Assembly: GCA_947626895.1 (NCBI GenBank)
Contig: CANQTY010000003.1
Location: 1,763-65,762 of the forward strand
Direction of reading: 5' to 3'
DNA: 64,000 nt
From: an uncultured Bacilli bacterium
GTDB lineage: Bacteria > Bacillota_I > Bacilli_A > RFN20 > CAG-449
Positions 35,424-60,323 of the stretch are shown here, in pieces; the stretch's first letter is position 1, and the number at the start of each line of letters is the position of its first letter. The notes beneath the pieces were generated by a model. That model did not search any database. It was given only the letters and a program-made list of their open reading frames with translations, and was not told where the DNA came from. A program made the translations under genes and the position numbers.

Positions 35424-35476
35424 AAATTTTTGATTTTTACATAATGACATGGTATTATAATGACAAGGAGATACTT

Positions 35477-42306: not shown

Positions 42307-42390
42307 TGGTACCCCTAGTCGGACTTGAACCGACACGGATCTCTCCAAACGATTTTGAGTCGTTCGCGGCTGCCATTACGCCATAGGGGC
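42307..42390 (-). tRNA. tRNA-Leu (anticodon CAA), long variable arm, CCA encoded
   Basis: Minus-strand read GCCCCTATGGCGTAATGGCAGCCGCGAACGACTCAAAATCGTT...GTCGGTTCAAGTCCGACTAGGGGTACCA. Acceptor stem is 7 bp (one G-U pair). Anticodon stem AACGA/TCGTT with loop CTCAAAA. T-arm GTCGG/CCGAC. Confidence 0.85.
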
Positions 42391-42495: not shown

Positions 42496-44268
42496 TTAAG
42501 CTTCTTGTTTCGATTTATCTTTGATAAATATCGACTCTTCTTCTTTTGATTTTACTTCTCGTTTAATTAGTTTCTTTTCAATTAATTCAACTGTTCCTTC
42601 ATAGGGTAAATAGTAATCTTTCGATTCAAAACTTTCATCTTTTTCTAAACCATATTTCGTCATCACATCTTCAATTAAATCATTACTATAACGAATACGT
42701 TTATCATTTTTTAATCGATACATACAAGGTGTATCTACATAAGATGTATTATTTGATGCATCCTCGACGCCATATTTAGTATCTTTATAAGAATCAACTT
42801 CTAAAGCTAAATAAATACATAATGTATTACCACGGAAAGATAAGCGAATAACACTATTTCTTCCTACATTAAATGTTTCTCTTTTCCAAGACATTCTTGC
42901 TTTGACATTCTTATAAGAAAGAATCTTATTTTTCACTTCAGTATAGTAATTTTTAACTACATCATCTGCTTGAATTAATCTAGCTTGGAAACTCTTATTA
43001 TATCTTAATGTTCCTGCTTCTTGAGAATCAATCACTTCTGGAATAATGATGACTGGTTTTTCTTCTTTTACTTCCTCGACTACCTCAATTTCAGGTTGAG
43101 CTTCTTTTAAATCTTTAGGTTCCTCTAGAACATCAACTAGAAATTCTTTAACTTCTTCTTTTACAGGTTCTTTTTCTTCTTTAACCTTTTCTTTAGAGAA
43201 TATCGACTCTTCTTCTTTTGATTTTACTTCTCGTTTAATTAGTTTCTTTTCAATTAACTCTACTGTTCCTTCATATGGTAAATAGTAATCTTTTGATTCA
43301 AAACTTTCATCTTTTTCTAAACCATATTTCGTCAGCACATCTTCAATTAAATCATTACTATAACGAATACGTTTATCATTTTTTAGTCGATACATACAGG
43401 GTGTATCTACATAAGATGTATTATTTGATGCATCCTCGACGCCATATTTAGTATCTTTATAAGAATCAACTTCTAAAGCTAAATAAATACATAATGTATT
43501 GCCCCTAAAGGATAAACGAATAACACTATTTCTTCCTACATTAAATGTTTCTCTTTTCCAGGACATTCTTGCTTTTACATTCTTATAAGAAAGAATCTTA
43601 TTTTTCACTTCAGTATAATAATTTTTAACTACATCATCTGCTTGAATTAGTCTAGCTTGGAAACTCTTATTATATCTTAATGTTCCTGCTTCTTGTGAAT
43701 CGATCACTTCTGGAATAATAACTACTGGTTTTTCTTCTTTTATTTCCTCGACTACCTCAATTTCAGGTTGAGCTTCTTTTAAATCTTTGGGTTCCTTAAC
43801 TGGAGTTTCTTCAATAATAGGTTCTTCTATTGCATCATCTTTAACTATAATAACTTCTTCTTTTTCTTCTTTATGAGGATTTGGTTTAACATTAATCTTA
43901 TAGATTTCCTCGAAGGACTTATAGTGAACCTTAACAAAGTGTTCTCCTTCTTCTTCCATATTGGGTATTTCTATTTCAAAACCTTCTTTGATCTTTTCTT
44001 TTTTAGGCTTTAAATTATATTTACATTCCAAAACTAATCCTTCACTAGAAAAGACTTCATTATATTCAAAGACTTTCTTTACTTCTTCTGTATTAATCTT
44101 CATATATAATAGCTTTCTTTCTCTTTTCTTGTTCTTTTTAAAGATTAATATAAGAAGTAATACAATCATTAATAAAGAGATTAATACTTCAAGAGCATAT
44201 AACCAAAATAAGGCTGTATCAATCTCCCATGGAATTTCATATCCAAATACTTTAATTGTTGCTATCAT
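42496..44268 (-). CDS. Membrane protein (N-terminal TM, predicted cytoplasmic body) carrying two near-identical ~224-aa tandem repeats; translationally coupled to the giant gene
   Basis: TM helix LFWLYALEVLISLLMIVLLLILIF followed by KKNKKRERK. Two copies of ...LRYNKSFQARLIQADDVV...RGNTLCIYLALEVDSYKDTKYG...EEESIF. The start ATG overlaps the giant ORF stop as ATGA. Confidence 0.7.
   Translation of the reverse strand: MIATIKVFGYEIPWEIDTALFWLYALEVLISLLMIVLLLILIFKKNKKRERKLLYMKINTEEVKKVFEYNEVFSSEGLVLECKYNLKPKKEKIKEGFEIEIPNMEEEGEHFVKVHYKSFEEIYKINVKPNPHKEEKEEVIIVKDDAIEEPIIEETPVKEPKDLKEAQPEIEVVEEIKEEKPVVIIPEVIDSQEAGTLRYNKSFQARLIQADDVVKNYYTEVKNKILSYKNVKARMSWKRETFNVGRNSVIRLSFRGNTLCIYLALEVDSYKDTKYGVEDASNNTSYVDTPCMYRLKNDKRIRYSNDLIEDVLTKYGLEKDESFESKDYYLPYEGTVELIEKKLIKREVKSKEEESIFSKEKVKEEKEPVKEEVKEFLVDVLEEPKDLKEAQPEIEVVEEVKEEKPVIIIPEVIDSQEAGTLRYNKSFQARLIQADDVVKNYYTEVKNKILSYKNVKARMSWKRETFNVGRNSVIRLSFRGNTLCIYLALEVDSYKDTKYGVEDASNNTSYVDTPCMYRLKNDKRIRYSNDLIEDVMTKYGLEKDESFESKDYYLPYEGTVELIEKKLIKREVKSKEEESIFIKDKSKQEA
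42524..43867. repeat. Near-perfect 672-bp tandem duplication inside CDS 42496-44268
   Basis: ATCGACTCTTC... at 42530 recurs at 43202. About 96% DNA identity over about 670 bp. Confidence 0.8.
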
Positions 44269-47200
44269 TCTTCGTCTCCTCCTTCGTCCTTCCTTCTGAT
44301 GACCATAATTATTAAGATACCTAATAAGATAATTTGTAAACCTAATATTACAATGGGTATGCTTAAATCATTTCCTAAAGAAATACCCCTTCTTTGATAA
44401 TTACATACTTTACATGTATTATTTTCAAAATCATGTTCTTCATGTATTGTACATCCATCCACGACACAATAATGTTCATTTTCATTACTTTCATAACTCG
44501 CTTCATGTTCTTCTATATAGCCACATGTTGTACACAAATGAATATGTTTATTATCTTCTTTTAACCATTCTCCATAAGTATGATTGAGCTTTGTTTCACT
44601 TGCCATACCACATACTTCACAAAGTAAATAGTGTCCATTTTCATCATGACCATATATGGAAGTAAAGATATGTTCACCTTCATTAAATCTTGCTCCACAT
44701 ATATCACATACTTGATAATGTTTATTTCCATCAATGTGATAGATTAAATCTTTACTAGAGTGTGCTTCTTTTTCTTTACTTGCATAACCACATACTTCAC
44801 AGATCTTATAATGATGTGTACTATCATATTTATATGTATCTTTAAAGACATGGGCTTCTTTATCATATTCACCACATTTACTACATACGTGATAATGATA
44901 TGTATCATCAAATTCAAAGGTAATAGAATTATCATGTCCTTCAACAATCGTACAATCTTTTCCTACACATCTATGAGATGCATCATCTACTCTTTCCCAA
45001 TGAATTTCATGAGAATCAGTCGCTTCACATCCATCCACTAGACAAGTTCTTACATGGTGATTACCATCGACTTCCCATAGACTCCATTGATGAGATTCTT
45101 CTAGACCACATACTTCACAAATATGATGTTCATGATCTTTATTTTGCCAAATTGGTGCATGATGAATGATGTATCCACATTCACATTGCCCATAATGTTC
45201 ACCATTTACTGTTGCCCATATAAAGTGATGTTCATCACTAATACTTGTTTCATAATCACACACAGAACATTCTTGATGATGTCCTAATTCTTCATCATTT
45301 ACCCAAATTAGATCATGATTCTCGACAATATTACAACCTGAAACAGTACATTTATGTTTGGCTACCGCTACATCATTTTCCCATTGAGCAATATGTGTAT
45401 CATTATAACCACATGTTGTACAAGTTCTATAGTGTATTCCTGTTTCAGTATTGATTGTCCAACTAGTAAAGCTATCATGTTCAACGTGTGTACTTTCTTT
45501 TCCACATACTTCACATACTTGATAATGTCCATCTTTATCACTTGAATATACATCTTTTGGATAGCTATGTTTTTCAACATCATAATGTGCTCCACATATA
45601 CTACATTCATGATAATGATTTCCTTCTTTATCACTTAACCATGTGCTTGATCCATCATGTCCTTGTTTAATATTACAACCTACATAACTACATACATGAG
45701 TTAAGCCATCGCCAGAATCTACATAATTTTCTTTGTGGCTTTGTCTTGATGCTTCTGTATGACAAATTTCACATTCTCTAGTATGCTCATGGGGCGCTTC
45801 TGGATTTAAATCATCTTGCCATTCACCATAAGTATGCGTTTCATTACTGTATTTTTCTTTACAAGTATTACATTCCTTCCAGTGAGATGTGCCATCAGAA
45901 CTCCAAGTTACTTCATCATGGCTTGCTCTATCTTTTTCATATCCACATGAACATGACCACCAGTGCTCTTCATTATTGAAATGTTTCTCAAATGAATGTG
46001 CTGATTTATTGATAATATCCCCGCAGGTATCACAAATTTCATAATGATTCTCACTATCATAAGTAGATGTATAATTATGGGAGGTTCTACTACCAGCTTT
46101 TTCTGCACCACATAAATCACATACTTCCCAATGATCATGAGTATCATGATCATATTTACCATTAAATACATGCTCTTGATTTTCATTAAATCTAGTTCCA
46201 CAGAATTCACATACTTGATAATGATGCCCATCACCAGCATCTTTCCAACTTGAAGAACTATGAGATCCTATATCAATTCTATGCCCACATTTAACACATG
46301 CATGGAAGTGAATATTTTCCTCGACTTGCCAATCTAATTTATAACTATGCTCTTCTTTTGTAGATTCTATTGCTCTATTACATACATCACATACTTGATA
46401 ATGGAATTCTCCATATTCAATATATTTATTACTAAATTGATGCTCCCCTTTATTAAATTGAGCATGGCAATCATCACATACTTGATAATGATAATTTCCT
46501 GTTTCATCAAGATTATATCCTCGTGAAGAATGATGTGATGTTTCACTACCCGTTTCCTTATGTCCACATTCATCACATACTTTCCAATGTACTTCACCAT
46601 TCTCTTCATACTGATAGGTATTATAGTGATGCTCAGAACGATTGATTTCTTTACCACATGAACATACTTGATGATGTTCTTCACCAGAAATTACATATTC
46701 TGTTGCACTATGTGAACGTAATTGATCTTTATATTGACATACTGTACATTCTTTCCAATGTGTTTCATCATTATATTTCCAAGTATCATCATAAGTATGA
46801 GAACCTCTAGCAAATTCTATACCACATTCTTTACATACTTTATAATGTTGATTTTTTACTAAATCCATAATATAACCATCGGAAGTATGTTCTACTTCTT
46901 CTGTTTTATATCCACATATTGAACATTCTTGATAATGTTTCGTTTGATCTTCTGTTTCTTTCCATTCTAAACTATGTCCAGAAAGTTCTCCTTTATATCC
47001 ACATTCTTTACATACTTTCCAGTGATTTGTTCCATCTTTTGACCATTCTACACCTTCATAATTATGTGCTTTGCTACCATACGTAGCACCACATACTTCA
47101 CATATATGATAGTGATTTTCTTCCGTGGCATAGTAGTTATTTGTTAATCCTGATTCTCCTTTATCTGGAGTATGGTCGTTTCTTTCAAATTCTGCGCCAC

Positions 47201-50200
47201 ATTTATCACATTTTTTATAATGTTGATGAAGTTCATTATCTACTATCCATTCTGAAGATTCATGTTCACTACTTTCACCTTGTTTTTTCATTCCACATAC
47301 ATCACAAACTGGTGAATGTGTACCTTCTCCTGAATTACTTTCATAAATTCCTTTTTCATAAGTATGATTACCTTTATCAAATTCACCACATTTATAACAT
47401 TTATGATAATGATAACTGCCATCTGCACTATTAAACCATGTTGTTAAATCTGCACCTTCATGTGACGCAGTAATTGTACATTGATCACATTTATGCATAC
47501 CATCATCGACTGGTGACCAAGTGGTTTCTTCAATTGAATGTTCTTCATGGAACCCACATATAATACAATCTCTTTCATGCATTGTTCCATCAGCACTTAC
47601 TTTCCATTCGCCAATATGCGCTTCATGATGTGTTACATATCCACAATCTTCACATCTTTGAATATATCCGTCATCATCATGCCCTTCTGGAACAAAATTA
47701 TGTACTCCATAATTATGTTTATATCCACATTTTGTACATTCTTGCCAATGATAAGTTTTATCCGTACTAACCCATTTATCTAACTCATAAGAATGAGTCT
47801 CTCTTGAAGATTCAATAATAAATCCACATATACTACAAACTTGATAATGTTCACTTTCGTTAGATTGCCATCCAACTTTTGGAGTATGTGCTTCTTTATT
47901 AAAGACTGCGCCACAATCTTTACATACTAACCAGTGATTTGTGCCATCATCATAGTATTCTAGTGATCCGTCCCCTTTTGTTTTTGCTTCATGAGAAAGA
48001 ATACCTTTATCTTCTCCACCTTCATCTCTTGTAGATTTTCCACATACATCACAAACTAACCAGTGACCTTTGTCATTGCTTTCATAATGATTACGATGTT
48101 CTTCTGAAGGTGTTCTATATTCACAATCTTCACAAATTTGATAATGCTTATTATTTTCACCATCTTGATAATATGTATCTCCAAAATTATGATTTACACG
48201 TTCAGTTTCATAACCACAATCTTTACATTTATAATAATGACCTAAAGCTTTATCTGATTCTTTAGTATATGGAGTTTCAAAATTATGTCCCTCTGTTGGG
48301 GTTTCATATCCACATACAGAACATCTTTGATGATGTCCTAAAGAAGGATCCTTTTCTTGAATAAATGTATCGCCAAAATTATGTGCTCCATCATTAAATC
48401 TAGCACCACATACATCACAAACCTTATGATGTCCATCTGCACCATCAATAATATATGATTCAGAGCTATGTTCTTCATAGATATTGCAATCTTCATATTG
48501 ACATGTGTGAGTGTTCTTCCCTATATCTTCTTTAAATGAGGCAAAGTGAGAATCTACATAACCACATCCTACTTGAGTACATGTTCTTTCATGTGCTCCA
48601 GTACGTTCATTAATTGTATATCCTTCTGCATCATATGTATGCGCAGATTCATTAAATTTTTGTCCACATTTATCACATAATTGATAATGATTATGTTCAT
48701 CATGCTGCCAAGTCGATGAAGAATGAGATGTTTTTTCATTATCATGACCACATAAAGAACATTTTTGATGATGTCCTTCTAAGCCATCACTTATCCATGT
48801 ATCACCATAGGAATGCTCTCCATAGTTAAATCTAGCACCACAAATTTGACATACTTGATAATGTTGACCTTTTTCTACGTCATCTATCCAAGCACCGTCT
48901 ATACTAGAATGCTCTGTTACATCACTTCTATATCCACAATCAGCACACAAATGATAATGTGTAGTCTTATTATCATCATAATGCCATGGTGTTCCATCAC
49001 CATAATTATGATTTTTTCTAGTGCTTCCATCTACTAAACCACATACTTTACATAATTTATAATGTTCTTCTTCAGTTGTAATATAAGGTTGATCTTCAGA
49101 ATCATGTACACCTTCTTCAATTTTTTGTCCACATACACAAATCTTATAGTGATTTTTTCCATCACTAATCCATACATCTGAAGAGTGTTCTTGTTCTGCA
49201 ACACCTGTTTGTTTTGCACCACAAATATCACACACTAACCAGTGATGATTTTCATCATGATCGTATTTTGAATTAAATTGATGTTTTTGTTGACCATAAT
49301 GTTCTCCACATGTTGCACATTGATAATAATGTCCATTAGGATCATCTGTATGCCATCCATTATTTTCTGTTGTATCTTGTGTATGTGCTGCTCGATCAAA
49401 TTCGGTACCACAAATAGCACATTTATGATAATGTCCACTATCCTTATCATTATACCAACCATGGCCATCTAAAATATGATCTTCAACAAAATCACAACCA
49501 TCTTCCAAACATCTATGTTGATCTGTTGCTTTTTCCCACTTACTAGAATCAGTACCTTCATGTTGTTGTATAGCAGTACAACCCTCAACTATACAACTTC
49601 TTTGATGTCCTTTTTCACCAAATTTTTCCCATGCTCCCCATTTATGTTCTTCAGTTAATGTGCAATCTTGACATTGATGATTCTTTCCGTCATTAGAATC
49701 TTTCCAATTTCCAAGATGAGAATCTACATAACCACATCCTTCAACTTGACAAGTTCTTTCATGTAATCCTGTTTTTTCATTTAATGCCCAGCCTTTAAGT
49801 GCATCATTACTATATGTATGATCTTCTGGTTTGGTCTGTTTTCCACATACTTCACAAACTTGCCAGTGATGATTTTCATCATGTTCATATTTATAAGTAT
49901 GTGATTTACTATTATCATAATTTTCATTACAAAGAGAACAATGATGATAATGTTCCGTATCATTTGATTCCCAAGTATTAGATCCATTATGTCCTTCAGT
50001 AATCGTACATTGACTACACTTATGTGTACTCTCATTTATATAAGTCCAACCATCATCTCCAGGAATAGCGTGTGAATTTGTAGCGGTACAACCTTCTACT
50101 GTACATTCTTGTACATGTTGCCCTTCAACAACTTTCCATTCTCCCCATTTGTGTTCTTCTACAATATTACAACCCGATTCATCAGTACATTTATGTTTAC

Positions 50201-53200: not shown

Positions 53201-56200
53201 CAGTAAATGTATGTCTAGCTTGATCTTTTATAAAGCCACAAATAGAACATTGATGATAGTGATATGTGTCATTATAATACCAGTTATTAGGATTGCCTTC
53301 ACGACTAAAATCGTGTGCCTCTGCAGTACTAGTTACAACACCACAATATTTACACACTTGATAATGATATGTTCCATCTTGGGTATATTTTTTCTCAAAA
53401 AAATCATGTGGAGTTATGTCAAAACGTTGACCACAATCATCACAAACCTTATAGTGACCAACATCTTTACCACCATCAATATATGTACCAGAACTATGAT
53501 GAGCAGTTTTATGATCGCCATCTTTATTTTCATAACCACATTCGTCACAAATTAACCAGTGAGAATCAATATCATAACCATAATGATCTGTGTAGCTTGA
53601 TGTATGCTTGTCATATTCTGTGCCACAAATAGTACATTGATGATAATGCACTAATTTACCATCTTCTTCCTTTTGTAACCATGTATCATATCCATCATGC
53701 CCTTGTTTTATATTACAATTTGGATCAGTACAAACATGAGATTTAGGATCTTGTTCAGATGGTTCAAAATGCTCTGTATGACTTTGTTTTGCGTCATCTA
53801 GTTTACATATCACACATTCTCTTGTGTGAGTGTGTGTTTCTGATGGATTATAATCATCTACCCATTCTCCATAAGTATGTGTTGCTTCGTTTAAATGAGT
53901 AGCATGACATGTAGCACAATTTTGCCAATGCTTTGAATTATTTTCATTTCCATTTGTTTCCCATGACAAATTATCATGTGCAACTTTTTCACCAGAAAGT
54001 CCACAACCATCACAAATCAACCAGTGATTTGTTTCGTCATAATTATATTGCCCTTTAGAATAATCATGTTTTCCATTTTCAAATTTTGCTCCACAAACAT
54101 CACATAATTTATAATGATTTGTTCCATCACTTAACCATGTATCTGTTGTACTACTATGTTCTTCTTCATCTAAATGCGCATGACATACATTACATTCATG
54201 ATAATGATTTTTTCCATCATCTTTCCAATCACTACTAGGCTCATGATTTCCTTCAATCGTACAATTTGGAACATTACAATGGTGACTTTGTCCTAATCCT
54301 GTTCCATCAGATACCCAATCTGGAGTATGTCCTTCCGTTTGTTGATAATTACAAATTTTACAAGTACCAACATGTTTTCCATCTATTTCATGCCAAATTG
54401 TAAATTCATGATCTTCAGGAGCTCCAGTTGTGTATGTACATCCCTCAACAGAACATTTTTGATAATGTCCGTCTTCATTACTAACCCATACTAATGTATG
54501 TTTATCAGTTGCATCACATATATCACATTTATGATTTTCGTTATCTCCTGCATCTACCCAATGTGGATCATGACTATCTACATATCCACAATCATTACAT
54601 GTTCTAGAATGATTTTTCCATGCTACATCAGTATAATCATGTTCTACTCTTCCGTATTCATTTTTACATGTAGCACAAATATGATAATGATCCTTATCAT
54701 CGCTATGCCAACCATTATTTTCTTCTATATCTGGAGTGTGTTCCCCTATATCATATTCGCCACATTTAGTACATAAATGATAGTGTTTTAGTGTTCCATC
54801 ATAATCTTTCTCTAACCAAGTATCATAGCCATCATGACCTTCGGTAATAGTACAAGTGCCATTTGCACCATTACATTTATGTGTACTATTATCTACTTTT
54901 TCCCAACCTACTCCGTTTATTTCATGGCTTTCATATTCTTCACAAACAAGACAAGTTCTTTCGTGGCGTAACTTATCTTCACTTATATGCCATTCACCAA
55001 TATGTTCTTTGTGCTCAACAGTATATCCACAGTCTTCACATGTTTGAATGTAGGTACCATTTTCTTGTTTTTCCCATGATGTAAAATTATGCGGTCCCAT
55101 ATTGTGGAACTTATATCCACAATCTATGCATTCTTGCCAGTGATTTGTTTCATCGGCAGTCCATCCTGCATTTTTAGCTGTGCCTTTATTTTCAGTGCCA
55201 TAATTATGAGGGGATACACCAAATGTAACATGACATACTGAGCAAATATACCAGTGATTAGTATCATCTCCAACATCTAACGTTTCTTCAGTTTTTGTAT
55301 GGCTTTCAACAAATCCACATCCTGGATAGTTACATTTATGATGTTCTCCATCACCAGAATCAACTAGTTTCCATGGATCTCCAATGGTATGTTCAGCATT
55401 AAATCCACATACTGAACATGTCGCAGTATGCTTATTTCCTTCATATGTCCAATCAATAACATGATTGGCAACATCCACTTTTTCTCCACATACTGAACAT
55501 TTATAATAATGTCCTGTTTCATCTGCATAATATCCATTATTATAAGATCCTTTTTGATCTAAGTGATCGTGATCCTCTACTATAGAACAGTCATCTTGCC
55601 CATCCTCTGATCCAGCACATTTATGCTGCGAACTATTAAATTTTTGAAAATTTGGTGTATGGCTTTGTCTATAATGTCCACTACCACCTGCTTGTATACA
55701 TGTACATTCTCTATAATGAATACCACTATCTATATCGTTATGCCATTCAGAATATGAATGAGAATCAAAAAAGCCACAACCATCTACATCACATTGATGT
55801 CGTGTTTCATCAAGATATTTAAATCCTCCTTCTGCGTGTCTACTTACAGCACCACATGTACATGCACCACGATGAGACTTATTACCATCATCTACTATTA
55901 CTTCCCATCCAGAAAAACTATGAGAAGTAATATTAAGATTTGCACCACAAATAGTACATACATTATAGTGATGTTCAGTATCATAAGACCATTCAGTTTC
56001 ATCATAATCATGATTTGCAGCAGGAATTCCACAACCCAACTCAGTGCACTGATGTTTTTCACTATTATCTATAGCATCCCATATGGGTGCATGTTCTTTA
56101 TGATAAGTACAACTACCACATGTTCCTTGATGATCACCACTAGATAAAGTATTCCATGCCAAAGAATGCGTTTCTTTAGTTGACTCTTGTTTTTCATGAC

Positions 56201-59200
56201 ATGATGAACATAAGTGATAATGATATTCAATATCACCCTCTACATATTCAAAATTTTCACCCCAATGATGTGCTTCAAATAAATTACAATCATCTACTGC
56301 ACATTGATGATATTGTTCATTATATGTTTCGTATTTTTTCGTAGATGCAAATGGCTCATGAGATTTATCATAATATCCACAGCCGTTATTATCACATATA
56401 TGGCGATGCTGTCCCTCAACTAATTCCCATTTATTATTATTAAATATATGAGGAGTAGTTTCAGTTTTATATTGACAATTAGAGTTTTGACATTGTTGAT
56501 AATGCCCAGTCGTTCCATCACTTATCCATGTATCACCATATGTATGATTCTCTTTTGAATTTTCATCTATATAGGAACAATCTAAACAATATCTCCAATG
56601 TTGAGTTGGATCATCTGTTTTATATTGATATTGATGTAATCCATTAGAGCTCTTTGCTCCACATTCTGGATTTGTGCATTTTTTATAATGTTCATCAGTG
56701 GTTGTTGTCCAATTGTCTTCCCAAGTATGTGCTTGGTTAATAGCCTCATAATTACATGTTCCACATCTTTGATAATGATTATCATCATCAAACGACCAAT
56801 TAAAAGAGTGATTTTGGTAATTCCAATTACCTTTACAAATATCACATATTTGATAATGCTGATTATCATATGTTGGCTCTGGACTATCATAATGCCATGA
56901 TGAATCAACACTAGATTCATGCTTCATATGTGTAGAATCATATCCACATTCTGTACATACTTGCCAATGCTCATTTTCATTATGAGAATACGTATTCGGT
57001 TCATATGTATGCCCTAGTGATTTCTCAAATGTGGCACCACAATCTTTACATATTTTATAATGATAGCCACCGCTTCCCTCAGTCGGATACGAATAATAAC
57101 CATTGTGATCATCTTTATTTGGAGTATGGGCTTCAGTACCGTAATGATAGGCACATCCATCACAAATATAATAATGCGTGAGACCTCCCTCTTCATAAGA
57201 TAATTCCTTTTCAGCATTGCTATGCTGATTTTTTATATCGCATGTTACATAAGTACATTGATGTTGCTCTTCATTTAAATAGGACCAGCCAGAATTATTT
57301 GTTTTTTTATCTGGGTTATGTATTGTGCTTTCCTCTACTGCACCGCATGAGCACTTATGTTCATGATTTCCGTTTTCTCCATTCACTATCCAATCAACAT
57401 ATGAATGAACATGCGCACTTTTATAGCCACATTTAGTACAAGTGCCATCTGAACCCCAAATATGATTTTCGATGTATGAACTTGTTTTATTTTCGTATCC
57501 ACATGTATCACATATGGCCCAGTGTTGTGCTTCATCATACCCAAATCCTTCTTTGTTGTTAGCGCTCCACTTATTATATGTGTGCGAAGCTTGAGAACTT
57601 TGTCGATTGCAATATTTACATTTTCCTCTATGATTAATTTCAGTTCTTGTGTACTCAAATACGTGTTTTTCTTCAAACACATTACCACCACAAATATCAC
57701 ATACTACTGTGTGATTTTCTTCTGAAGTATGCTCACCTGTTTTGTGCTGTAATGTAGTATGCTTTTCTCTATAAGTTCCATTACAAATCGCACAAGTAGT
57801 ACGATGCTCTTTATCGTCGACTCTATCATATTTTGTAGGTGTTGAGTGATTTTCAACAATATCACAAAATTTGCAACGATGATGTTGCGTATCGCAATTC
57901 TCTTCTTTTACACTACCATTATATATTGGTTCCCATGATGCTGTAGTATTATCAACTGAATGCGATTCCTCTAATGTACACTCCACATCACCTTCTACAT
58001 AACCACAATCTTTCCTATGTGTTGTTCCATCTACATACCACCCGTTTTCTGTTATTCCAAGATGATTTTTTTCCCAACCATAATCTTTAGCATGAGTTTT
58101 TGACTCATCTATATATCCACATGTAGTACATTTGTATATATGATTATTTCCTTCTAAAAACCATTCAAAGACATGTTCTTCAGGTGAACTATTAATACGA
58201 GCGGAACAATATTGACATTGTTGATAGTGTCCCGACGAATCATCATACGTATAATCAGAACCAGGTGTATGCTCTGAAGATACCCATCCACAAACCGAAC
58301 AACTATGAGTTCCTAAACCAGTATCTACAAACTTACTATTGTTAGTACAATGGTTTTCATAATCACAATCTAAACATTTTTGATAATGATCGTTTTCATC
58401 TCCACTCCATTCATCCCCAAAATTATGCCCTTGTGCACCATATTCATCTCCGCAAAATTCACAAACATACCAATGATAATCAGCGTTAGTATCACTAGAT
58501 GAATCAGCGTGACTCCATACATCCGAAGATGATGTATGCGGAATTGATAAAGTACAGGTACCATCTGCGCCAGTACATTTATGCCCTTCGTTTTCGCTTA
58601 TATTATCCTTATCAAGTGATTCACTTCCAGATGAACTAGGTTCATGTGTATCGTGGTAATGACAAACGATACATTCTCTATAATGATTACCATATGAATC
58701 ACTTTGCCATGTCCCATCAAATTGGTGTTCAACAGCTCCATATTTATCTCCACATACATCACAAACTAACCAATGCTTGTCTTTATCACTTTCGTTTCCA
58801 TTTCCACTTGATGAATCATAGTATTGCCAATTATGTTCTGAATCACTAGTGCTATGAGCATTTTGAATACCACATTCATTATTGCCATCGCCTTTACATT
58901 GATGACCATTATTACCTTCAATTGAGTCACTATCTAAAGAATTCCACATATCGGAACCACTGACAGAATGTGTTTGGCGACAATCACAAGCTTTACATTT
59001 TCTTTCATGCATTGTTCCATCAGCAATTTCTTCCCATTTATCATAATCGTGTGCAGTTGCACTATATTTAGCGCCACAATCATCACAAACCTTATAATGA
59101 TAATCACTATTTGATTCCCATTTATCATCTGTTGAGTGATGTGTAATTGTCGTAATATTACAATCTCCCACGTCGCAACTATGTCCATCGTCATTTGTTT

Positions 59201-59924
59201 GAAAATCAAATGCATCCTTTGGCATCCAATTAGGTTCATGAAAATCGATTATAGCATAACAATCATTACAACTTTTAATGTGTAGCACACTTTGTGTAGA
59301 TCCATCACTAACTACATTACCACTGGCATCGAGAGCTTCCCAAAGAGAACTACTATGAGAACAAGGAAAATAAGAGTTCACGTTGGCTTTTGTCACTTTG
59401 CATTCCCAGCAATACTCCCCTTCTCCTCCTTCATAGGAAAAATTATGTTCGCCATAGGTTTCACTTACTCCCATATGACAATCTTCACATTCTTTCCAAT
59501 GGTGCGTTTGATTATATTTCCATCCAGTATCAGCATCAGAATTATACTTGTGAGGTGAACCATTAGGACAAAAATTAGAAAATACAATTCCATCTTTTAT
59601 TTCAAGACCTATATCACTAGATAAGCTCGTTAATTCTATCCCATTATCATTATTTATATTATCTATATTATATTCTTGATTTTCTTGTGATGATTTTTGT
59701 TCTAATCTTATTTGTTCTGCATGTACATGATCATGTTCTTCTTCATGTTCATGATCATGCTCCTCTTCTTCTGTATGTTGATGAGTTAATTCATGTTTTT
59801 GTTGTACTACATCACTTGCAGGGTATTGGGGTGCAATGAAAAAGAATAATAAAGCAAGTAATACATGCGAAGTACATGTAAGTATCTTTTTAATCAATTT
59901 TTTGAACTCAAAAAAACTTTTCAT
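44265..59924 (-). CDS. Giant (5219 aa) secreted, C-terminally membrane-anchored protein made of ~150 tandem Cys/His mini-modules (H-[YW]-x2-C-x2-C-[GH]-x6-9-H-x-[FYW]) with a His/Glu/Asp-rich N-terminal tract
   Basis: A 15.66-kb uninterrupted ORF in an AT-rich genome. N-terminal signal peptide KKLIKKILTCTSHVLLALLFFFIAPQYPAS. HDHEHEEEHDHVH tract. C-terminal TM LSIPIVILGLQIILLGILIIMVI plus RRKDEGGDEE tail. Composition is dominated by H, C, D, G, Y, W, E, T, N. Confidence 0.85.
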   Translation of the reverse strand: MKSFFEFKKLIKKILTCTSHVLLALLFFFIAPQYPASDVVQQKHELTHQHTEEEEHDHEHEEEHDHVHAEQIRLEQKSSQENQEYNIDNINNDNGIELTSLSSDIGLEIKDGIVFSNFCPNGSPHKYNSDADTGWKYNQTHHWKECEDCHMGVSETYGEHNFSYEGGEGEYCWECKVTKANVNSYFPCSHSSSLWEALDASGNVVSDGSTQSVLHIKSCNDCYAIIDFHEPNWMPKDAFDFQTNDDGHSCDVGDCNITTITHHSTDDKWESNSDYHYKVCDDCGAKYSATAHDYDKWEEIADGTMHERKCKACDCRQTHSVSGSDMWNSLDSDSIEGNNGHQCKGDGNNECGIQNAHSTSDSEHNWQYYDSSSGNGNESDKDKHWLVCDVCGDKYGAVEHQFDGTWQSDSYGNHYRECIVCHYHDTHEPSSSGSESLDKDNISENEGHKCTGADGTCTLSIPHTSSSDVWSHADSSSDTNADYHWYVCEFCGDEYGAQGHNFGDEWSGDENDHYQKCLDCDYENHCTNNSKFVDTGLGTHSCSVCGWVSSEHTPGSDYTYDDSSGHYQQCQYCSARINSSPEEHVFEWFLEGNNHIYKCTTCGYIDESKTHAKDYGWEKNHLGITENGWYVDGTTHRKDCGYVEGDVECTLEESHSVDNTTASWEPIYNGSVKEENCDTQHHRCKFCDIVENHSTPTKYDRVDDKEHRTTCAICNGTYREKHTTLQHKTGEHTSEENHTVVCDICGGNVFEEKHVFEYTRTEINHRGKCKYCNRQSSQASHTYNKWSANNKEGFGYDEAQHWAICDTCGYENKTSSYIENHIWGSDGTCTKCGYKSAHVHSYVDWIVNGENGNHEHKCSCGAVEESTIHNPDKKTNNSGWSYLNEEQHQCTYVTCDIKNQHSNAEKELSYEEGGLTHYYICDGCAYHYGTEAHTPNKDDHNGYYSYPTEGSGGYHYKICKDCGATFEKSLGHTYEPNTYSHNENEHWQVCTECGYDSTHMKHESSVDSSWHYDSPEPTYDNQHYQICDICKGNWNYQNHSFNWSFDDDNHYQRCGTCNYEAINQAHTWEDNWTTTTDEHYKKCTNPECGAKSSNGLHQYQYKTDDPTQHWRYCLDCSYIDENSKENHTYGDTWISDGTTGHYQQCQNSNCQYKTETTPHIFNNNKWELVEGQHRHICDNNGCGYYDKSHEPFASTKKYETYNEQYHQCAVDDCNLFEAHHWGENFEYVEGDIEYHYHLCSSCHEKQESTKETHSLAWNTLSSGDHQGTCGSCTYHKEHAPIWDAIDNSEKHQCTELGCGIPAANHDYDETEWSYDTEHHYNVCTICGANLNITSHSFSGWEVIVDDGNKSHRGACTCGAVSRHAEGGFKYLDETRHQCDVDGCGFFDSHSYSEWHNDIDSGIHYRECTCIQAGGSGHYRQSHTPNFQKFNSSQHKCAGSEDGQDDCSIVEDHDHLDQKGSYNNGYYADETGHYYKCSVCGEKVDVANHVIDWTYEGNKHTATCSVCGFNAEHTIGDPWKLVDSGDGEHHKCNYPGCGFVESHTKTEETLDVGDDTNHWYICSVCHVTFGVSPHNYGTENKGTAKNAGWTADETNHWQECIDCGYKFHNMGPHNFTSWEKQENGTYIQTCEDCGYTVEHKEHIGEWHISEDKLRHERTCLVCEEYESHEINGVGWEKVDNSTHKCNGANGTCTITEGHDGYDTWLEKDYDGTLKHYHLCTKCGEYDIGEHTPDIEENNGWHSDDKDHYHICATCKNEYGRVEHDYTDVAWKNHSRTCNDCGYVDSHDPHWVDAGDNENHKCDICDATDKHTLVWVSNEDGHYQKCSVEGCTYTTGAPEDHEFTIWHEIDGKHVGTCKICNYQQTEGHTPDWVSDGTGLGQSHHCNVPNCTIEGNHEPSSDWKDDGKNHYHECNVCHAHLDEEEHSSTTDTWLSDGTNHYKLCDVCGAKFENGKHDYSKGQYNYDETNHWLICDGCGLSGEKVAHDNLSWETNGNENNSKHWQNCATCHATHLNEATHTYGEWVDDYNPSETHTHTRECVICKLDDAKQSHTEHFEPSEQDPKSHVCTDPNCNIKQGHDGYDTWLQKEEDGKLVHYHQCTICGTEYDKHTSSYTDHYGYDIDSHWLICDECGYENKDGDHKTAHHSSGTYIDGGKDVGHYKVCDDCGQRFDITPHDFFEKKYTQDGTYHYQVCKYCGVVTSTAEAHDFSREGNPNNWYYNDTYHYHQCSICGFIKDQARHTFTGEHNGYTVVGNQHYRSCTCGYESLHEDHISDLGEGQWHISDSEHYKICKVCGVKFENSEHNWGSSWISAGSEGHYQECSVCHADSEKISHNFGDGKFTDDGGIHKRTCTEQGCGYVDSHFGSFKEDVGKGTHTCQYAECDINGVHTSSHLVTNSSDDVEHGVGHHKVCDYCNAEFEFTKHTFKEGEYQFNNLAHWQVCECGQESEHVLHTPDDTGWYVEGDNHHQVCDTCKQQFNVGEHTYELNKYGYKGEEHWRICDLCGAEGAHEGHSSTRSYEHDETNHWKICDACGEKINVDGHSESYLQSADGHYKFCTVCQSTIAKMQVHDYTGVAWENHSRTCTKCGYVDSHFASWGSDADRHWCTLCIGKEPEEHTFDIWVSDETGHHQKCSICEYEEKTHASHKFTIWHEIDGKHVGTCEDCSYQQTEGHNPHWVSDGTGLEQGHHCDVSECTIKGAHEPSSDWKDDGTNHYHECSVCHERLDEAAHSYKKDVYSSNKEEHWQVCEVCGKESTHEEHSYKGTENEGWNYNVETEKHERTCSTCGYSESHLPNLGELEGDDEHHQCKDCVLQEGHSYHWVDDKDNENHHEECSVCGHRSGRTENHNLTYAEVNGRHIGTCECGYQDEGHDPVWNDNKNGKHICETCKLESPHVWEETWRYDDEYHYHKCVFCDATKDKTDENKHVIKWQVVDGEHVGTCTVEGCEYRTASHPGNWKDSNDGKNHQCQDCTLTEEHKWGAWEKFGEKGHQRSCSVEGCTATQQHDGTSNWKINDGKHECTIDGCDFVEEHHSETWLVDGEHNQHYKKCDICGAEFAKEGHTQDTTENNGWHTDDKDNHYHYCSVCKSNYDVGDHSYQKDVYSSDKDGHWQVCEVCGKETEHVEHGSFTSWTTNTETGLHYRTCTTCNYNDAHIAKWENDSENNQHKCTVSDCDIKQNHDLIWVNEEESGHYQKCSVEGCNYTTNRSETHNFKWNTIDGKHVGQCEQCGYRIEHTPSWTNDEGSGKHKCTDESGCNIVEEHKWGEWKVVEGQHVQECTVEGCTATNSHAIPGDDGWTYINESTHKCSQCTITEGHNGSNTWESNDTEHYHHCSLCNENYDNSKSHTYKYEHDENHHWQVCEVCGKQTKPEDHTYSNDALKGWALNEKTGLHERTCQVEGCGYVDSHLGNWKDSNDGKNHQCQDCTLTEEHKWGAWEKFGEKGHQRSCIVEGCTAIQQHEGTDSSKWEKATDQHRCLEDGCDFVEDHILDGHGWYNDKDSGHYHKCAICGTEFDRAAHTQDTTENNGWHTDDPNGHYYQCATCGEHYGQQKHQFNSKYDHDENHHWLVCDICGAKQTGVAEQEHSSDVWISDGKNHYKICVCGQKIEEGVHDSEDQPYITTEEEHYKLCKVCGLVDGSTRKNHNYGDGTPWHYDDNKTTHYHLCADCGYRSDVTEHSSIDGAWIDDVEKGQHYQVCQICGARFNYGEHSYGDTWISDGLEGHHQKCSLCGHDNEKTSHSSSTWQHDEHNHYQLCDKCGQKFNESAHTYDAEGYTINERTGAHERTCTQVGCGYVDSHFASFKEDIGKNTHTCQYEDCNIYEEHSSESYIIDGADGHHKVCDVCGARFNDGAHNFGDTFIQEKDPSLGHHQRCSVCGYETPTEGHNFETPYTKESDKALGHYYKCKDCGYETERVNHNFGDTYYQDGENNKHYQICEDCEYRTPSEEHRNHYESNDKGHWLVCDVCGKSTRDEGGEDKGILSHEAKTKGDGSLEYYDDGTNHWLVCKDCGAVFNKEAHTPKVGWQSNESEHYQVCSICGFIIESSRETHSYELDKWVSTDKTYHWQECTKCGYKHNYGVHNFVPEGHDDDGYIQRCEDCGYVTHHEAHIGEWKVSADGTMHERDCIICGFHEEHSIEETTWSPVDDGMHKCDQCTITASHEGADLTTWFNSADGSYHYHKCYKCGEFDKGNHTYEKGIYESNSGEGTHSPVCDVCGMKKQGESSEHESSEWIVDNELHQHYKKCDKCGAEFERNDHTPDKGESGLTNNYYATEENHYHICEVCGATYGSKAHNYEGVEWSKDGTNHWKVCKECGYKGELSGHSLEWKETEDQTKHYQECSICGYKTEEVEHTSDGYIMDLVKNQHYKVCKECGIEFARGSHTYDDTWKYNDETHWKECTVCQYKDQLRSHSATEYVISGEEHHQVCSCGKEINRSEHHYNTYQYEENGEVHWKVCDECGHKETGSETSHHSSRGYNLDETGNYHYQVCDDCHAQFNKGEHQFSNKYIEYGEFHYQVCDVCNRAIESTKEEHSYKLDWQVEENIHFHACVKCGHRIDIGSHSSSSWKDAGDGHHYQVCEFCGTRFNENQEHVFNGKYDHDTHDHWEVCDLCGAEKAGSRTSHNYTSTYDSENHYEICDTCGDIINKSAHSFEKHFNNEEHWWSCSCGYEKDRASHDEVTWSSDGTSHWKECNTCKEKYSNETHTYGEWQDDLNPEAPHEHTRECEICHTEASRQSHKENYVDSGDGLTHVCSYVGCNIKQGHDGSSTWLSDKEGNHYHECSICGAHYDVEKHSYPKDVYSSDKDGHYQVCEVCGKESTHVEHDSFTSWTINTETGIHYRTCTTCGYNDTHIAQWENDVAVAKHKCTVSGCNIVENHDLIWVNDEELGHHQECSVCDYETSISDEHHFIWATVNGEHYGQCECGYIIHHAPIWQNKDHEHHICEVCGLEESHQWSLWEVDGNHHVRTCLVDGCEATDSHEIHWERVDDASHRCVGKDCTIVEGHDNSITFEFDDTYHYHVCSKCGEYDKEAHVFKDTYKYDSTHHYKICEVCGYASKEKEAHSSKDLIYHIDGNKHYQVCDICGARFNEGEHIFTSIYGHDENGHYLLCEVCGMASETKLNHTYGEWLKEDNKHIHLCTTCGYIEEHEASYESNENEHYCVVDGCTIHEEHDFENNTCKVCNYQRRGISLGNDLSIPIVILGLQIILLGILIIMVIRRKDEGGDEE

Positions 59925-59952
59925 GCAAAACCCTTATTCGGTAAAACAATAG

Positions 59953-59962
59953 CCCCCCCCCC
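59953..59962 (-). promoter_or_regulatory. Homopolymeric G10 (C10 on plus strand) tract in the putative promoter spacer of the giant gene
   Basis: Minus-strand read: TTGACT-tttccaacGGGGGGGGGG-cTATTGT...AAGGG-6nt-ATG. The tract lies between a -35-like TTGACT (59971-59976) and a -10-like element. Confidence 0.5.
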
Positions 59963-59991
59963 GTTGGAAAAGTCAATAAATTGATGTGAAA

Positions 59992-60009
59992 TTTGTGCTC
60001 GAGCACAAA
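59992..60009. promoter_or_regulatory. Perfect 18-bp palindrome TTTGTGCTCGAGCACAAA upstream of giant-gene promoter
   Basis: 9+9 perfect inverted repeat, about 15 bp upstream of the -35. No flanking T-run, so it looks like an operator rather than a terminator. Confidence 0.4.
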
Positions 60010-60152
60010 TGCAATTTGACTACATCTATGCATTTTGACCTCATTTTGTCTATTTTTTATCAAATAAAAGGTTTTCTTAAAACTCACCCCATATAGTTAA
60101 AATCCTAGGAGAGTATTCTTTCCTAGGACTCAAACTTGATTTATGCCTTCAA

Positions 60153-60323
60153 TTACTTTTTATATTTCTTATGATAATTTTTAACTAATTGATTTCCCTT
60201 ATTTTGACAACAAGAACATTCTCCAGTAGGGAGATGGTTCTTCTTCTTATATATATATAAAATAAGAAGGGAACTAAAGAAAACAATAATAAAGATAATT
60301 ACTAAGATTGCTAAAGGAGACAT
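60153..60323 (-). CDS. FeoB-associated Cys-rich membrane peptide (56 aa)
   Basis: MSPLAILVIIFIIVFFSSLLILYIYKKKNHLPTGECSCCQNKGNQLVKNYHKKYKK is a TM helix plus Cys cluster. It starts 1 nt after the feoB stop. Absent from the ORF track because it is under 60 aa. Confidence 0.6.
   Translation of the reverse strand: MSPLAILVIIFIIVFFSSLLILYIYKKKNHLPTGECSCCQNKGNQLVKNYHKKYKK

What the first reader, a model, noticed from the sequence alone, without database searches (positions are those of the whole stretch)
44265..59924. 15.7-kb gene for a 5219-aa surface protein built of ~150 zinc-finger-like Cys2His2 mini-modules
The translation is an almost uninterrupted array of ~28-34-aa units. Examples are NHYKLCDVCGAKFENGKHDY, GHYQKCSVEGCTYTTGAPEDHEF and KHVGTCKICNYQQTEGHTPDW. 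The unit is H-[YW]-x2-C-x2(-4)-C-[GH]-x6-9-H-x-aromatic. That gives two Cys plus two to three His per module, which is the ligand set of a tetrahedral Zn site. Leu, Ile, Lys and Met are nearly absent, so the modules are unlikely to have a hydrophobic core and are plausibly metal-stabilised. The protein has a Sec signal peptide, a His/Glu tract (HDHEHEEEHDHVH) and a single C-terminal TM anchor with a short charged tail, so the whole array would be displayed outside the cell. I do not recognise this architecture as a described family. Candidate roles are a metal (Zn/Fe) sponge or scavenger, an adhesin, or a phase-variable surface antigen.
Basis: seen in the sequence. Interest (0 to 1): 0.92.

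Follow-up and report, generated by a model that had tools for sequence, protein, structure and literature searches.

The report
Giant zinc-stapled bacterial surface rod protein
A gut bacterium encodes a 5,219-residue surface protein made almost entirely of about 170 tiny beta-sheet modules that are probably clipped end to end by zinc ions into a half-micrometre rod; the module was first noticed in 2025 in an IgA protease, and this is by far the longest array found.

Summary
Window 44265-59924 (-) is one intact 5,219-aa ORF with 346 Cys forming 170 Cys pairs, spaced 29.7 aa on average. Nearly all pairs are flanked by His: [W/Y]-x2-D-x3-H-[Y/W]-x2-C-x2(4)-C-G-x5/8-H. The DNA repeats are diverged (60-95% identity), so this is not a collapsed-repeat artefact.

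The module has no Pfam or NCBIfam model, but it is not wholly undescribed. A module profile hits the C-terminal part of the Thomasclavelia ramosa IgA protease sequence (PDB 9qa6). Two 2025 papers call these regions ZBD1/ZBD2 or CTD2/CTD4: predicted three-stranded sheets linked by His2Cys2 zinc sites, rod-like by SAXS, with no solved homologue.

An exhaustive profile search finds 3,864 representative proteins with the module, fused to extracellular domains. This protein has about twice as many modules as any other listed.

Best reading: a Sec-exported, C-terminally membrane-anchored, very acidic fibril in which each zinc joins two His of one module to the CxxC of the next.

The feoAB neighbourhood is not conserved, so the metal-sponge idea is unsupported. 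A G10 tract in the promoter spacer suggests phase variation. A translationally coupled downstream gene recurs next to other giant surface proteins.

Zinc binding and function remain untested.

The parts
44265..59924 (-). Gene for the 5,219-aa module-array protein (the stop codon is 44265-44267)
   Evidence: ORF list and translation. It is identical to protein P0001 in the public collection, a singleton cluster seen on one 73-kb NCBI contig.
59814..59924 (-). N-terminal Sec-type signal-like segment (aa 1-37): a Lys-rich n-region, the hydrophobic core HVLLALLFFFIA, then PQYPAS/D
   Evidence: Read from the sequence. Cleavage was not tested because no signal-peptide predictor was available.
59721..59795 (-). 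His/Glu-rich tract HELTHQHTEEEEHDHEHEEEHDHVH (aa 44-68) at the membrane-distal end
   Evidence: It gives only a weak, composition-driven match to the His-rich loop of the RcnA Ni/Co transporter (E 3e-4, far below cut-off). Similar tracts of at least 5 His in 15 aa occur near the N-terminus of only 4 of the 150 best homologues.
44403..59489 (-). Array of 170 His/Cys modules (aa 146-5174), ending in a bare CKVC knuckle at aa 5171-5174
   Evidence: hmmsearch with the module profile reports 135 matched stretches and 1,697 bits.
48612..49088 (-). Five-module segment (aa 3613-3771) used for structure prediction
44298..44366 (-). C-terminal transmembrane helix LSIPIVILGLQIILLGILIIMVI (aa 5187-5209), followed by the charged tail RRKDEGGDEE (44268-44297). 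There is no LPXTG-type motif.
59946..59976 (-). Putative promoter: TTGACT (59976-59971), a 19-nt spacer containing G10 (59962-59953), and TATTGT (59951-59946). The RBS AAGGG is at 59935-59931.
   Evidence: This is the only G or C run of 7 or more in the 64-kb window. About 0.001 G10/C10 runs are expected by base composition. Runs of 9 or more occur 6 times in 1.55 Mb of related loci. The tool's own promoter scan did not call this site because it only allows spacers of 16-18 nt.
42496..44268 (-). Translationally coupled downstream gene (590 aa; ATGA overlap): an N-terminal TM helix followed by two copies of a conserved domain of about 190 aa
   Evidence: A homologue (39-47% identity, E 1e-71) lies 18 nt downstream of the distant array protein P0002 (L081). 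Other homologues lie directly downstream of 1,891-4,746-aa surface proteins of other repeat types.
60103..60128 (-). Hairpin TCCTAGGAAAGAATACTCTCCTAGGA followed by TTTTAA, lying between the feoAAB/small-protein operon and the giant gene
   Evidence: This is my reading of the sequence. The tool's terminator scan did not list this hairpin.

Best explanation
The gene encodes a secreted protein that is anchored in the membrane by its C-terminus. Its whole ectodomain is a chain of about 170 small three-stranded beta-sheet modules. Each module contributes two histidines at one end, one 4 (or 2) residues before its CxxC and one 9 (or 6) residues after it. It also contributes a CxxC 'knuckle' at the other end. 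A tetrahedral zinc ion most likely joins the two histidines of module i to the CxxC of module i+1. The zinc ions therefore act as staples that lock core-less sheets end to end into a stiff, extended and highly acidic rod. Scaling from the published 110-A, 129-residue model gives a length of about 0.4-0.6 micrometres.

The rod would stand on the cell surface as a fibril. Possible roles are spacer, shield or adhesive brush, with a His/Glu-rich tip. The same module serves as a stalk between functional domains in thousands of other Firmicutes-type surface proteins.

Expression is probably switched on and off by slippage of a G10 tract that sets the spacing of the promoter hexamers. A translationally coupled membrane protein encoded downstream is probably part of the same system, with an unknown role.

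Shown: the gene, the module pattern, homology to the IgA-protease modules, the breadth of the family, the predicted all-beta fold, and the sequence statistics. Inferred: zinc as the metal, the inter-module ligand assignment, the rod length, the surface-fibril role, and phase variation.
For: - Gene and pattern.
- Real gene, not an artefact: DNA repeat copies are only 60-95% identical and the longest pair (300 nt) is 79% identical. Anchored CxxC-module windows average 22% aa identity, with an adjacent-pair maximum of 52%.
- Homology to the T. ramosa IgA protease: a profile of 116 modules hits 9qa6_A at E 5e-7. Two full modules align, EWKSDDTNHWHECTVAGCGVIIESTKSAHTA and EWKSNADNHWHECNCGDKKDEAAHSF.
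- Literature on those regions. They are predicted three-stranded antiparallel sheets with 2His+2Cys sites at subdomain interfaces, no disulfides, and about 110 A for 129 residues (PMC12237041). SAXS of isolated CTD2 fits a fully extended rod, there is no hydrophobic core, and zinc is judged purely structural (PMC12415215).
- Our AlphaFold2 model of five modules has pLDDT 85.4 and is all-beta, with the CxxC at the turn between strands 2 and 3 where strands are assigned.
- Inter-module staple model. In 150 family members, 89% of interior knuckles (2,778 of 3,105) are followed by a His 4-13 residues on. Only 26% of array-terminal knuckles (57 of 223) are (Fisher p 4e-99). The giant itself ends in CKVC with no flanking His. 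Within the giant, the upstream and downstream His positions co-vary: H at -2 goes with H at +6/+7 in 29 of 30 modules, and H at -4 goes with H at +8 or more in 89 of 125 (p 2e-12). This is as expected if the two His sit side by side at the far end of one hairpin.
- Stalk role. There are 3,864 representative proteins at E<=1e-3. Partner domains in 40 homologues are extracellular: LRR_5, dockerin, cohesin, CHAP, papain-like protease, choline-binding, CBM. Sources name homologues SLH-domain, LCP-family or hypothetical proteins.
- Phase variation.
- Coupled partner gene.
Against: - No metal content, structure or expression data exist for this protein, nor experimentally for any member of the family. 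The IgA-protease crystal and cryo-EM models stop at residue 876, before these domains.
- I could not read model coordinates, so the ligand assignment rests on topology and sequence statistics, not on measured distances.
- No head or ligand-binding domain was found at the tip, so 'stalk' leaves open what the protein presents.
- With G10 the promoter spacer is 19 nt, which is sub-optimal. The -10-like hexamer is weak (TATTGT), and the site was not called by the tool's own promoter scan.
- G-tract length variation could not be tested. The gene is a singleton in every collection searched.
- Extracellular Cys could be oxidised where oxygen is present.
Confidence: 0.6

Rival explanations
1. Extracellular metal sponge, store or scavenger. 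The 170 His2Cys2 sites plus the His/Glu tip would capture Zn (or Fe) for the cell, functionally tied to the adjacent feoAAB iron-uptake operon.
For: There are 170 potential sites, a His/Glu-rich N-terminal tract and net charge -541. feoA-feoA-feoB and a Cys-rich small membrane protein lie immediately upstream on the same strand. The PNAS authors leave open that zinc availability could regulate such domains.
Against: None of 80 feoB loci from related genomes has a module array nearby. The closest relative (FeoB 84% identical) shares only feoA-feoA-feoB and the small protein with this window. A hairpin with a T-run and a separate promoter-like site separate the genes. Fully coordinated Cys2His2 sites holding a fold together are structural and poorly exchangeable (established zinc-finger chemistry; also argued in PMC12415215). 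The same modules occur as spacers in enzymes, cohesin/dockerin and LRR proteins.
Confidence: 0.08
2. The modules themselves are the functional unit: a multivalent adhesin or lectin-like binder (for example for mucin, dietary glycans or other cells), not merely a spacer.
For: There is no separate head domain. Conserved surface-exposed aromatic residues (W at -11, Y/W at -3) and the extreme multivalency are typical of carbohydrate-binding surfaces. Homologues carry adhesion-type partners such as BspA-type LRR_5.
Against: In the IgA protease the homologous domains are dispensable for substrate cleavage and behave as a rod. The conserved aromatics may simply pack against the zinc site. No ligand is known.
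Confidence: 0.17
3. Cys-rich repeats stabilised by disulfide bonds, like EGF-type modules, rather than by metal.
For: The location is extracellular, and each module has two Cys.
Against: The two Cys of a module are only 2-4 residues apart in a knuckle, and two His are conserved as strongly as the Cys. The organism's relatives are gut anaerobes. In the IgA protease no disulfides were seen, and reducing agent was needed for monodispersity.
Confidence: 0.04
4. Assembly artefact or decaying pseudogene of collapsed or expanded repeats in a metagenome-assembled genome.
For: It is a singleton, seen on one contig only. No relatives were found in two metagenome scans.
Against: The repeats are too diverged to mis-assemble. 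The frame is open for 5,219 codons, with the ligand pattern intact in 164-169 of 170 modules. The gene has ordinary signal, anchor, RBS and a coupled downstream gene.
Confidence: 0.02

Closest known systems
ZBD1/ZBD2 (also called CTD2/CTD4, or beta3, beta4, beta6) of the Thomasclavelia ramosa M64 IgA protease (UniProt Q9AES2; PDB sequence 9qa6; PMC12237041, PMC12415215, PMC12402451)
   Same: It has the same sequence module, W-x2-D-x3-H-W-x-x-C-x(1-4)-C-G-x7-8-H. It has the same predicted three-stranded sheet per unit and the same 2His+2Cys sites at the junctions. There is no hydrophobic core. It is rod-like in solution. It has no solved structural homologue. It is a surface-anchored protein of a low-GC gut Firmicute.
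   Different: The protease has 3+2 units serving as spacers behind a catalytic head, and it has an SPQTG sortase motif. Here there are 170 units with no recognisable head, a TM anchor without a sortase motif, an extra short module type (H-x-C...H at +6) and a His/Glu tip. Zinc binding is not experimentally shown in either protein.
Periscope Proteins (SasG/Aap G5-E, Rib, SHIRT, YDG, MBG_2 arrays; PMC8201768, PMC9704523)
   Same: They are tandem small beta domains with N and C termini at opposite ends, forming a rod that projects from the cell surface. The partner gene found here also sits behind YDG/MBG_2 giants.
   Different: Periscope repeats are near-identical at the DNA level, and their number varies between strains. 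Here the repeats are diverged (anchored CxxC-module windows average 22% aa identity; DNA 60-95%), no strain variation is observable, and no N-terminal ligand-binding domain was found. The rigidity is proposed to come from a metal staple rather than from interdomain packing.
Calcium-rigidified giant RTX adhesins (for example the Marinomonas ice-binding adhesin; PMC7493085)
   Same: They use the same physical principle: metal ions coordinated between tandem beta repeats stiffen and extend a protein of about half a micrometre from the cell surface.
   Different: RTX adhesins use Ca2+ bound by acidic residues between roughly 100-aa Ig-like sandwiches, are exported by type I secretion and occur in Gram-negative hosts. 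There is no sequence or fold relation to the modules here.
Classical C2H2 zinc fingers and zinc ribbons/rubredoxin knuckles
   Same: They share a CxxC(G) knuckle and a Cys2His2 tetrahedral ligand set. The weak PDB hits to rubredoxins and ZNF proteins cover only the knuckle.
   Different: The ligand order here is H-C-C-H, the predicted fold is all-beta with no helix, and the ligands are probably shared between neighbouring modules. The proteins are extracellular. There are no Pfam zf matches.

Membership tests
IgA-protease-type zinc-linked beta-sheet module (ZBD/CTD2-CTD4; no Pfam accession) | Sequence similarity to the ZBD modules | tested here: met
   A profile of 116 modules hits 9qa6_A at E 5e-7. 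The two modules have independent E-values of 7e-5 and 1e-3 and align over the full profile.
IgA-protease-type zinc-linked beta-sheet module (ZBD/CTD2-CTD4; no Pfam accession) | Two His plus two Cys per unit at conserved positions | tested here: met
   There are 170 Cys pairs. 164 have a His upstream and 169 have a His downstream. H, C, C and H are the only invariant or near-invariant columns (note that H at -4 was used to select those 116 modules).
IgA-protease-type zinc-linked beta-sheet module (ZBD/CTD2-CTD4; no Pfam accession) | Three-stranded antiparallel sheet per unit, placed end to end | tested here: inconclusive
   The AlphaFold2 secondary structure fits (pLDDT 85.4). I could not inspect coordinates, and the model was built without metal.
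IgA-protease-type zinc-linked beta-sheet module (ZBD/CTD2-CTD4; no Pfam accession) | Zinc actually bound, at junctions between units | not testable with these tools
   Support is indirect only: terminal knuckles lack the downstream His (26% against 89%), and the two His positions co-vary.
Periscope Proteins | Highly similar tandem repeats (high DNA identity) | tested here: not met
   DNA copies are 60-95% identical, and the longest pair (300 nt) is 79% identical. Anchored CxxC-module windows average 22% aa identity, and only 0.1% of pairs reach 70%.
Periscope Proteins | Repeat-number variation between strains | not testable with these tools
   The gene is a singleton. There is no second copy in the protein collection, the species-representative genomes or the JGI metagenomes.
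Periscope Proteins | N-terminal functional domain projected by the stalk | tested here: not met
   Residues 1-145 have no Pfam hit and only sub-threshold, composition-driven NCBIfam hits. They are low-complexity, His/Glu- and Asn/Asp-rich.
Periscope Proteins | Surface anchoring and elongated rod | tested here: inconclusive
   A C-terminal TM helix is present but there is no sortase motif. The rod shape is inferred from the homologous CTD2 SAXS.
Classical C2H2 zinc finger (Pfam zf-C2H2) | C-x2-4-C-x12-H-x3-5-H in a beta-beta-alpha fold | tested here: not met
   The ligand order is H-x3-C-x2-C-x8-H. There are no helices of four or more residues in the model. There is no Pfam match at E<=1.
Rubredoxin / zinc ribbon | Two CxxC knuckles giving a Cys4 site | tested here: not met
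   Each module has one knuckle plus two His. The PDB hits to rubredoxins cover only profile positions 12-26 at E>=0.003.
Feo-linked iron/metal acquisition system | Conserved gene neighbourhood with feoAB | tested here: not met
   0 of 80 related feoB loci carry a module array. The closest relative shares only the feo genes.

The most novel reading that the evidence does not exclude
The array is a zinc-gated mechanical element. The fibril would be a stiff half-micrometre rod only while about 170 zinc ions are bound, and would collapse or be degraded when the host withholds zinc (for example through calprotectin). The cell's surface architecture, and a zinc pool comparable in size to a whole cell's quota, would then respond directly to ambient zinc. 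The His/Glu tip would act as the loading antenna, and the conserved downstream membrane protein would be a dedicated assembly or anchoring factor for giant surface fibrils.
Probability: 0.12. Interest if true: 0.85.

Novelty: new variant of a known kind. Interest (0 to 1): 0.62.

Why it matters
If each junction really holds a zinc ion, this would be a single polypeptide with about 170 structural zinc sites. To my knowledge the largest zinc-finger proteins have a few dozen. It would also be a clear case of a building principle so far only guessed at from five modules of one IgA protease: core-less beta sheets stapled into long extracellular rods by His2Cys2 zinc.

The profile search shows the module in thousands of uncharacterised surface proteins of gut and rumen Firmicutes, yet it has no Pfam or NCBIfam model. 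A family definition and one solved structure would therefore annotate a large block of 'hypothetical' surface proteins.

It also connects surface architecture of gut commensals to zinc availability and host nutritional immunity. In addition, it points to a recurrent partner gene for giant surface proteins.

Tried and rejected
- Pfam and NCBIfam on the whole protein in two halves gave nothing relevant.
- The word-indexed protein search with aa 401-5219 found only the protein itself and one distant protein, P0002. It is much less sensitive than the exhaustive profile search.
- The look-up of the contig encoding P0001 found nothing on record, so the source organism is inferred only from FeoB relatives.
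- The first multi-module alignment used overlapping windows. It came out staggered and useless (A2), so I replaced it with 27 non-overlapping five-module windows (A3).
- Aligning 36 long homologues failed internally. A set of 40 shorter ones worked.
- feoAB synteny was tested and rejected.
- A regular 450-aa super-repeat was rejected.
- The His-rich N-terminal tract is not a general family feature. It occurs in only 4 of 150 homologues.
- A search for the same promoter with a variable G tract found nothing in JGI metagenomes, and neither did a search for close relatives of the first 600 aa.
- Literature searches for other descriptions of the module found only the three 2025 IgA-protease papers.
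Full report
OBSERVATION. Window 44265-59924 (minus strand) is a single ORF of 5,219 codons. Its product has 346 Cys. Of these, 340 fall into 170 pairs with 1-9 residues between them (x2 in 122, x4 in 31, x1 in 10). The pairs run from aa 146 to aa 5174 with a start-to-start spacing of 29.7 aa on average (median 29, range 18-47).

Position-specific counts anchored on the Cys pairs give this module: [W/Y] at -11, D at -8, H at -4 (130 of 165 in the first count), [Y/W] at -3, C-x2-C, G at +1, and H at +6 or +9. 164 of 170 pairs have a His within five residues upstream. 169 of 170 have a His before the next module.

Compared with 37 other ORFs of the window, His, Cys and Trp are 4.2-, 5.8- and 5.1-fold enriched. 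Leu, Met and Ile are at 0.26x, 0.10x and 0.45x. Lys is only mildly reduced (6.0%, 0.64x), so 'Lys nearly absent' is wrong. The net charge is -541. The signal-like N-terminus, the His/Glu tract (aa 44-68) and the C-terminal TM helix with a charged tail are present. There is no sortase motif.

NOT AN ARTEFACT. At the DNA level the repeat copies are 60-95% identical. The longest repeated pair is 300 nt at 79%, and only one 170-nt block reaches 95%. Ungapped windows anchored on the 123 CxxC modules average 22% amino-acid identity, and adjacent windows never exceed 52%. Such diverged repeats do not collapse in assembly, and a 15.7-kb open frame in 34% GC DNA cannot be accidental. There is no regular 450-aa super-repeat, only segmental duplications at offsets of 805 and 1,694 aa (55-60% identity) and one short block at 453 aa.

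WHAT THE MODULE IS. Pfam and NCBIfam have no model for it. This holds for the giant and for 40 homologues scanned individually. A profile of 116 modules searched against all PDB chain sequences gives one significant hit, 9qa6_A 'IgA protease' (E 5e-7), with two complete modules aligned. All other hits (rubredoxins, ZNF proteins) cover only the CxxCG knuckle.

9qa6 belongs to the Thomasclavelia ramosa M64 IgA protease. Three 2025 papers treat these regions:
- PLoS Pathogens (PMC12237041) names them ZBD1 and ZBD2. It describes AlphaFold3 models of three (or two) subdomains, each a three-stranded antiparallel sheet. [quoted passage not shown] The length is about 110 A for 129 residues. [quoted passage not shown]
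- PNAS (PMC12415215) names them CTD2 and CTD4. It shows by SAXS that isolated CTD2 is a fully extended rod, notes the lack of a hydrophobic core, judges the zinc to be purely structural, and proposes 'an uncharacterized periscope domain fold'.
- EMBO J (PMC12402451) lists them as beta-sheet domains without further analysis.

The experimental structures stop at residue 876, before these domains. The module is therefore known, but only as a prediction in one enzyme.

WHICH LIGANDS SHARE A ZINC (inference). In an up-down-up sheet the CxxC turn lies at one end, and both His (before strand 2 and after strand 3) lie at the other end. The two His are therefore too far from their own knuckle but next to the knuckle of the following module. 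Three sequence tests agree with this:
(a) The published subdomain II runs from His935 to His968, which maps onto 'terminal His of one module to terminal His of the next' in our alignment.
(b) Across the 150 best family members, 89% of interior knuckles (2,778 of 3,105) are followed by a His 4-13 residues on, but only 26% of array-terminal knuckles (57 of 223) are (p 4e-99). Arrays typically end in a bare CxxC cap, as the giant does (CKVC at 5171, the only knuckle lacking both His).
(c) In the giant the two His positions co-vary. H at -2 goes with H at +6/+7 in 29 of 30 modules, and H at -4 goes with H at +8 or more in 89 of 125 (p 2e-12). This is expected if they face each other on one hairpin.

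I could not read coordinates, so this remains an inference.

BREADTH OF THE FAMILY. An exhaustive hmmsearch of 1.84 billion representative proteins finds 3,864 at E<=1e-3, 1,159 at E<=1e-10 and 129 at E<=1e-30. The giant scores 1,697 bits with 135 matched stretches. The next-best score has 38 stretches, and the next-largest arrays have 71 (6,446 aa), 52 and 44. By Cys-pair counting the figures are 163 against 93, 71 and 66.

The homologues are signal-peptide proteins with TM, sortase-like, SLH or choline-binding anchors. Their partner domains are extracellular: BspA-type LRR_5 (6 of 40), dockerin (6), cohesin (4), CHAP, papain-like protease, CBM_X2, lectin-like and beta-helix. Sources call them hypothetical, LCP-family or SLH-domain proteins from Clostridia MAGs. 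The module is thus a general extracellular stalk element. The giant itself is a singleton, with one sequence on one contig and no close relative in JGI metagenomes.

CONTEXT. The window is chromosomal, carrying GroEL, the Suf system, MnmG and RsmG. FeoB relatives place the organism among uncultured gut 'Bacilli'. The best match is a rabbit-gut MAG at 84% FeoB identity. The next matches, at 65-71%, are labelled Coprobacillus sp. CAG:826, Erysipelotrichaceae, Anaeroplasmataceae or Mollicutes.

Upstream on the same strand lie feoA, feoA, feoB and a 56-aa Cys-rich membrane protein. These are followed by a hairpin with a T-run and a gap of about 230 nt. None of 80 related feoB loci has a module array nearby. 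The closest relative shares only the feo genes with this window. The feo link is therefore coincidental.

The gap holds TTGACT, a 19-nt spacer containing G10, then TATTGT. AAGGG lies 6 nt before the ATG. This is the only G/C run of 7 or more in 64 kb. About 0.001 such runs are expected. A homopolymer in a promoter spacer is a classical slipped-strand phase-variation switch (established knowledge). The tool's own promoter scan did not list the site because it only allows 16-18-nt spacers.

Downstream, overlapping the stop by ATGA, is a 590-aa ORF with an N-terminal TM helix and two copies of a conserved domain of about 190 aa. A homologue (39-47% identity, E 1e-71) sits 18 nt behind the distant 4,301-aa array protein P0002 in an unrelated, GC-richer contig. 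Other homologues sit 2-4 nt behind, or overlap, giant TM-anchored surface proteins of 3,085, 4,746 and 1,891 aa that carry YDG/MBG_2 or unassigned repeats and no zinc modules. Three further homologues have no giant neighbour.

MECHANISM AND RIVALS. The best-supported reading is a Sec-exported, C-terminally membrane-anchored, polyanionic fibril of about 170 zinc-stapled sheets. Scaling from the published 110 A per 129 residues (or per three subdomains) gives about 0.4-0.6 micrometres. It probably acts as a surface spacer, shield or adhesive brush and is probably phase-variable.

The rivals fare as follows:
- The metal-sponge rival lacks conserved feo linkage and conflicts with the structural nature of such sites.
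- A multivalent-binder role for the modules cannot be excluded, because no head domain was found.
- Disulfide stabilisation conflicts with the conserved His and with the IgA-protease data.
- An artefact is excluded by repeat divergence.

COMPARISON AND NOVELTY. The protein is a member of the same module family as the IgA-protease ZBD/CTD2-CTD4. Sequence, ligand set and predicted fold all fit, and metal binding is untested. It works like a Periscope Protein stalk and like Ca-rigidified RTX adhesins (PMC8201768, PMC7493085). It fails the periscope criteria of near-identical repeats and an N-terminal functional domain. It is not a classical C2H2 finger or a zinc ribbon.

I rate it a new variant of a known (barely characterised) kind. 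It has the same module at 30-fold larger scale, without a head, with an additional short module type, a His/Glu tip, a TM anchor, a candidate phase switch and a conserved partner gene.

LIMITS. There is no experimental evidence for metal, fold, localisation or expression. I had no access to model coordinates. The source organism is identified only approximately. The partner-gene association rests on eight contexts.

Noticed in passing
[not shown]
   Followed up: partly
window 59953-59962: A G10 tract (C10 on the + strand) lies in the 19-nt spacer between TTGACT and TATTGT, 29 nt upstream of the giant gene's ATG. It is the only G/C homopolymer of 7 or more in the window and is a candidate slipped-strand phase-variation switch.
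   Followed up: partly
L083 805-813 (also L084): A 9-nt G/C homopolymer lies 64 nt inside the 5' coding region of the 3,085-aa YDG/MBG_2 surface-protein gene that precedes a partner-family gene. This may be a translational phase-variation site in another giant surface protein.
   Followed up: no
window 59994-60007: A perfect 14-bp palindrome, TGTGCTCGAGCACA, lies just upstream of the putative -35 of the giant gene. It may be an operator for an unidentified regulator.
   Followed up: no
window 60153-60323 (-): A 56-aa membrane protein with a CSCCQ motif lies directly after feoB. It is conserved behind feoB in the closest relative (L001 12306-12431) but matches no Pfam or NCBIfam model here.
   Followed up: partly
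window 15553-16767, 30626-31936, 35444-36772, 33117-34520, 36882-38198, 39915-40949: The window carries three paralogous AAA_14/DUF4143 ATPases, a DUF2130 protein, a Schlafen AlbA_2/HATPase_c_4/HTH protein and an Abi_2 protein. The last five cluster at 30-41 kb and look like a defence-type island, which is also the AT-richest part of the window.
   Followed up: no
window 42307-42390 (-): tRNA-Leu(CAA) lies immediately downstream of the giant-plus-partner gene pair. Synteny with the closest relative ends at feoB. The pair may therefore lie in a variable region next to a tRNA gene.
   Followed up: partly
homologues P0003, P0007, P0010 and others (counts): Many family members alternate the canonical H-x3-C-x2-C-x8-H module with a second Cys-rich module. 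This one has no upstream His and a His about 13 residues after the knuckle (for example 'ANCTDxQxCTVCxxxxxxAxGH'). It is rare or absent in the giant, which instead uses a short H-x-C...H(+6) module.
   Followed up: partly
window 17446-19146 and 19159-20928 (-): Two adjacent ORFs of 566 and 589 aa have no Pfam match at E<=1e-5.
   Followed up: no
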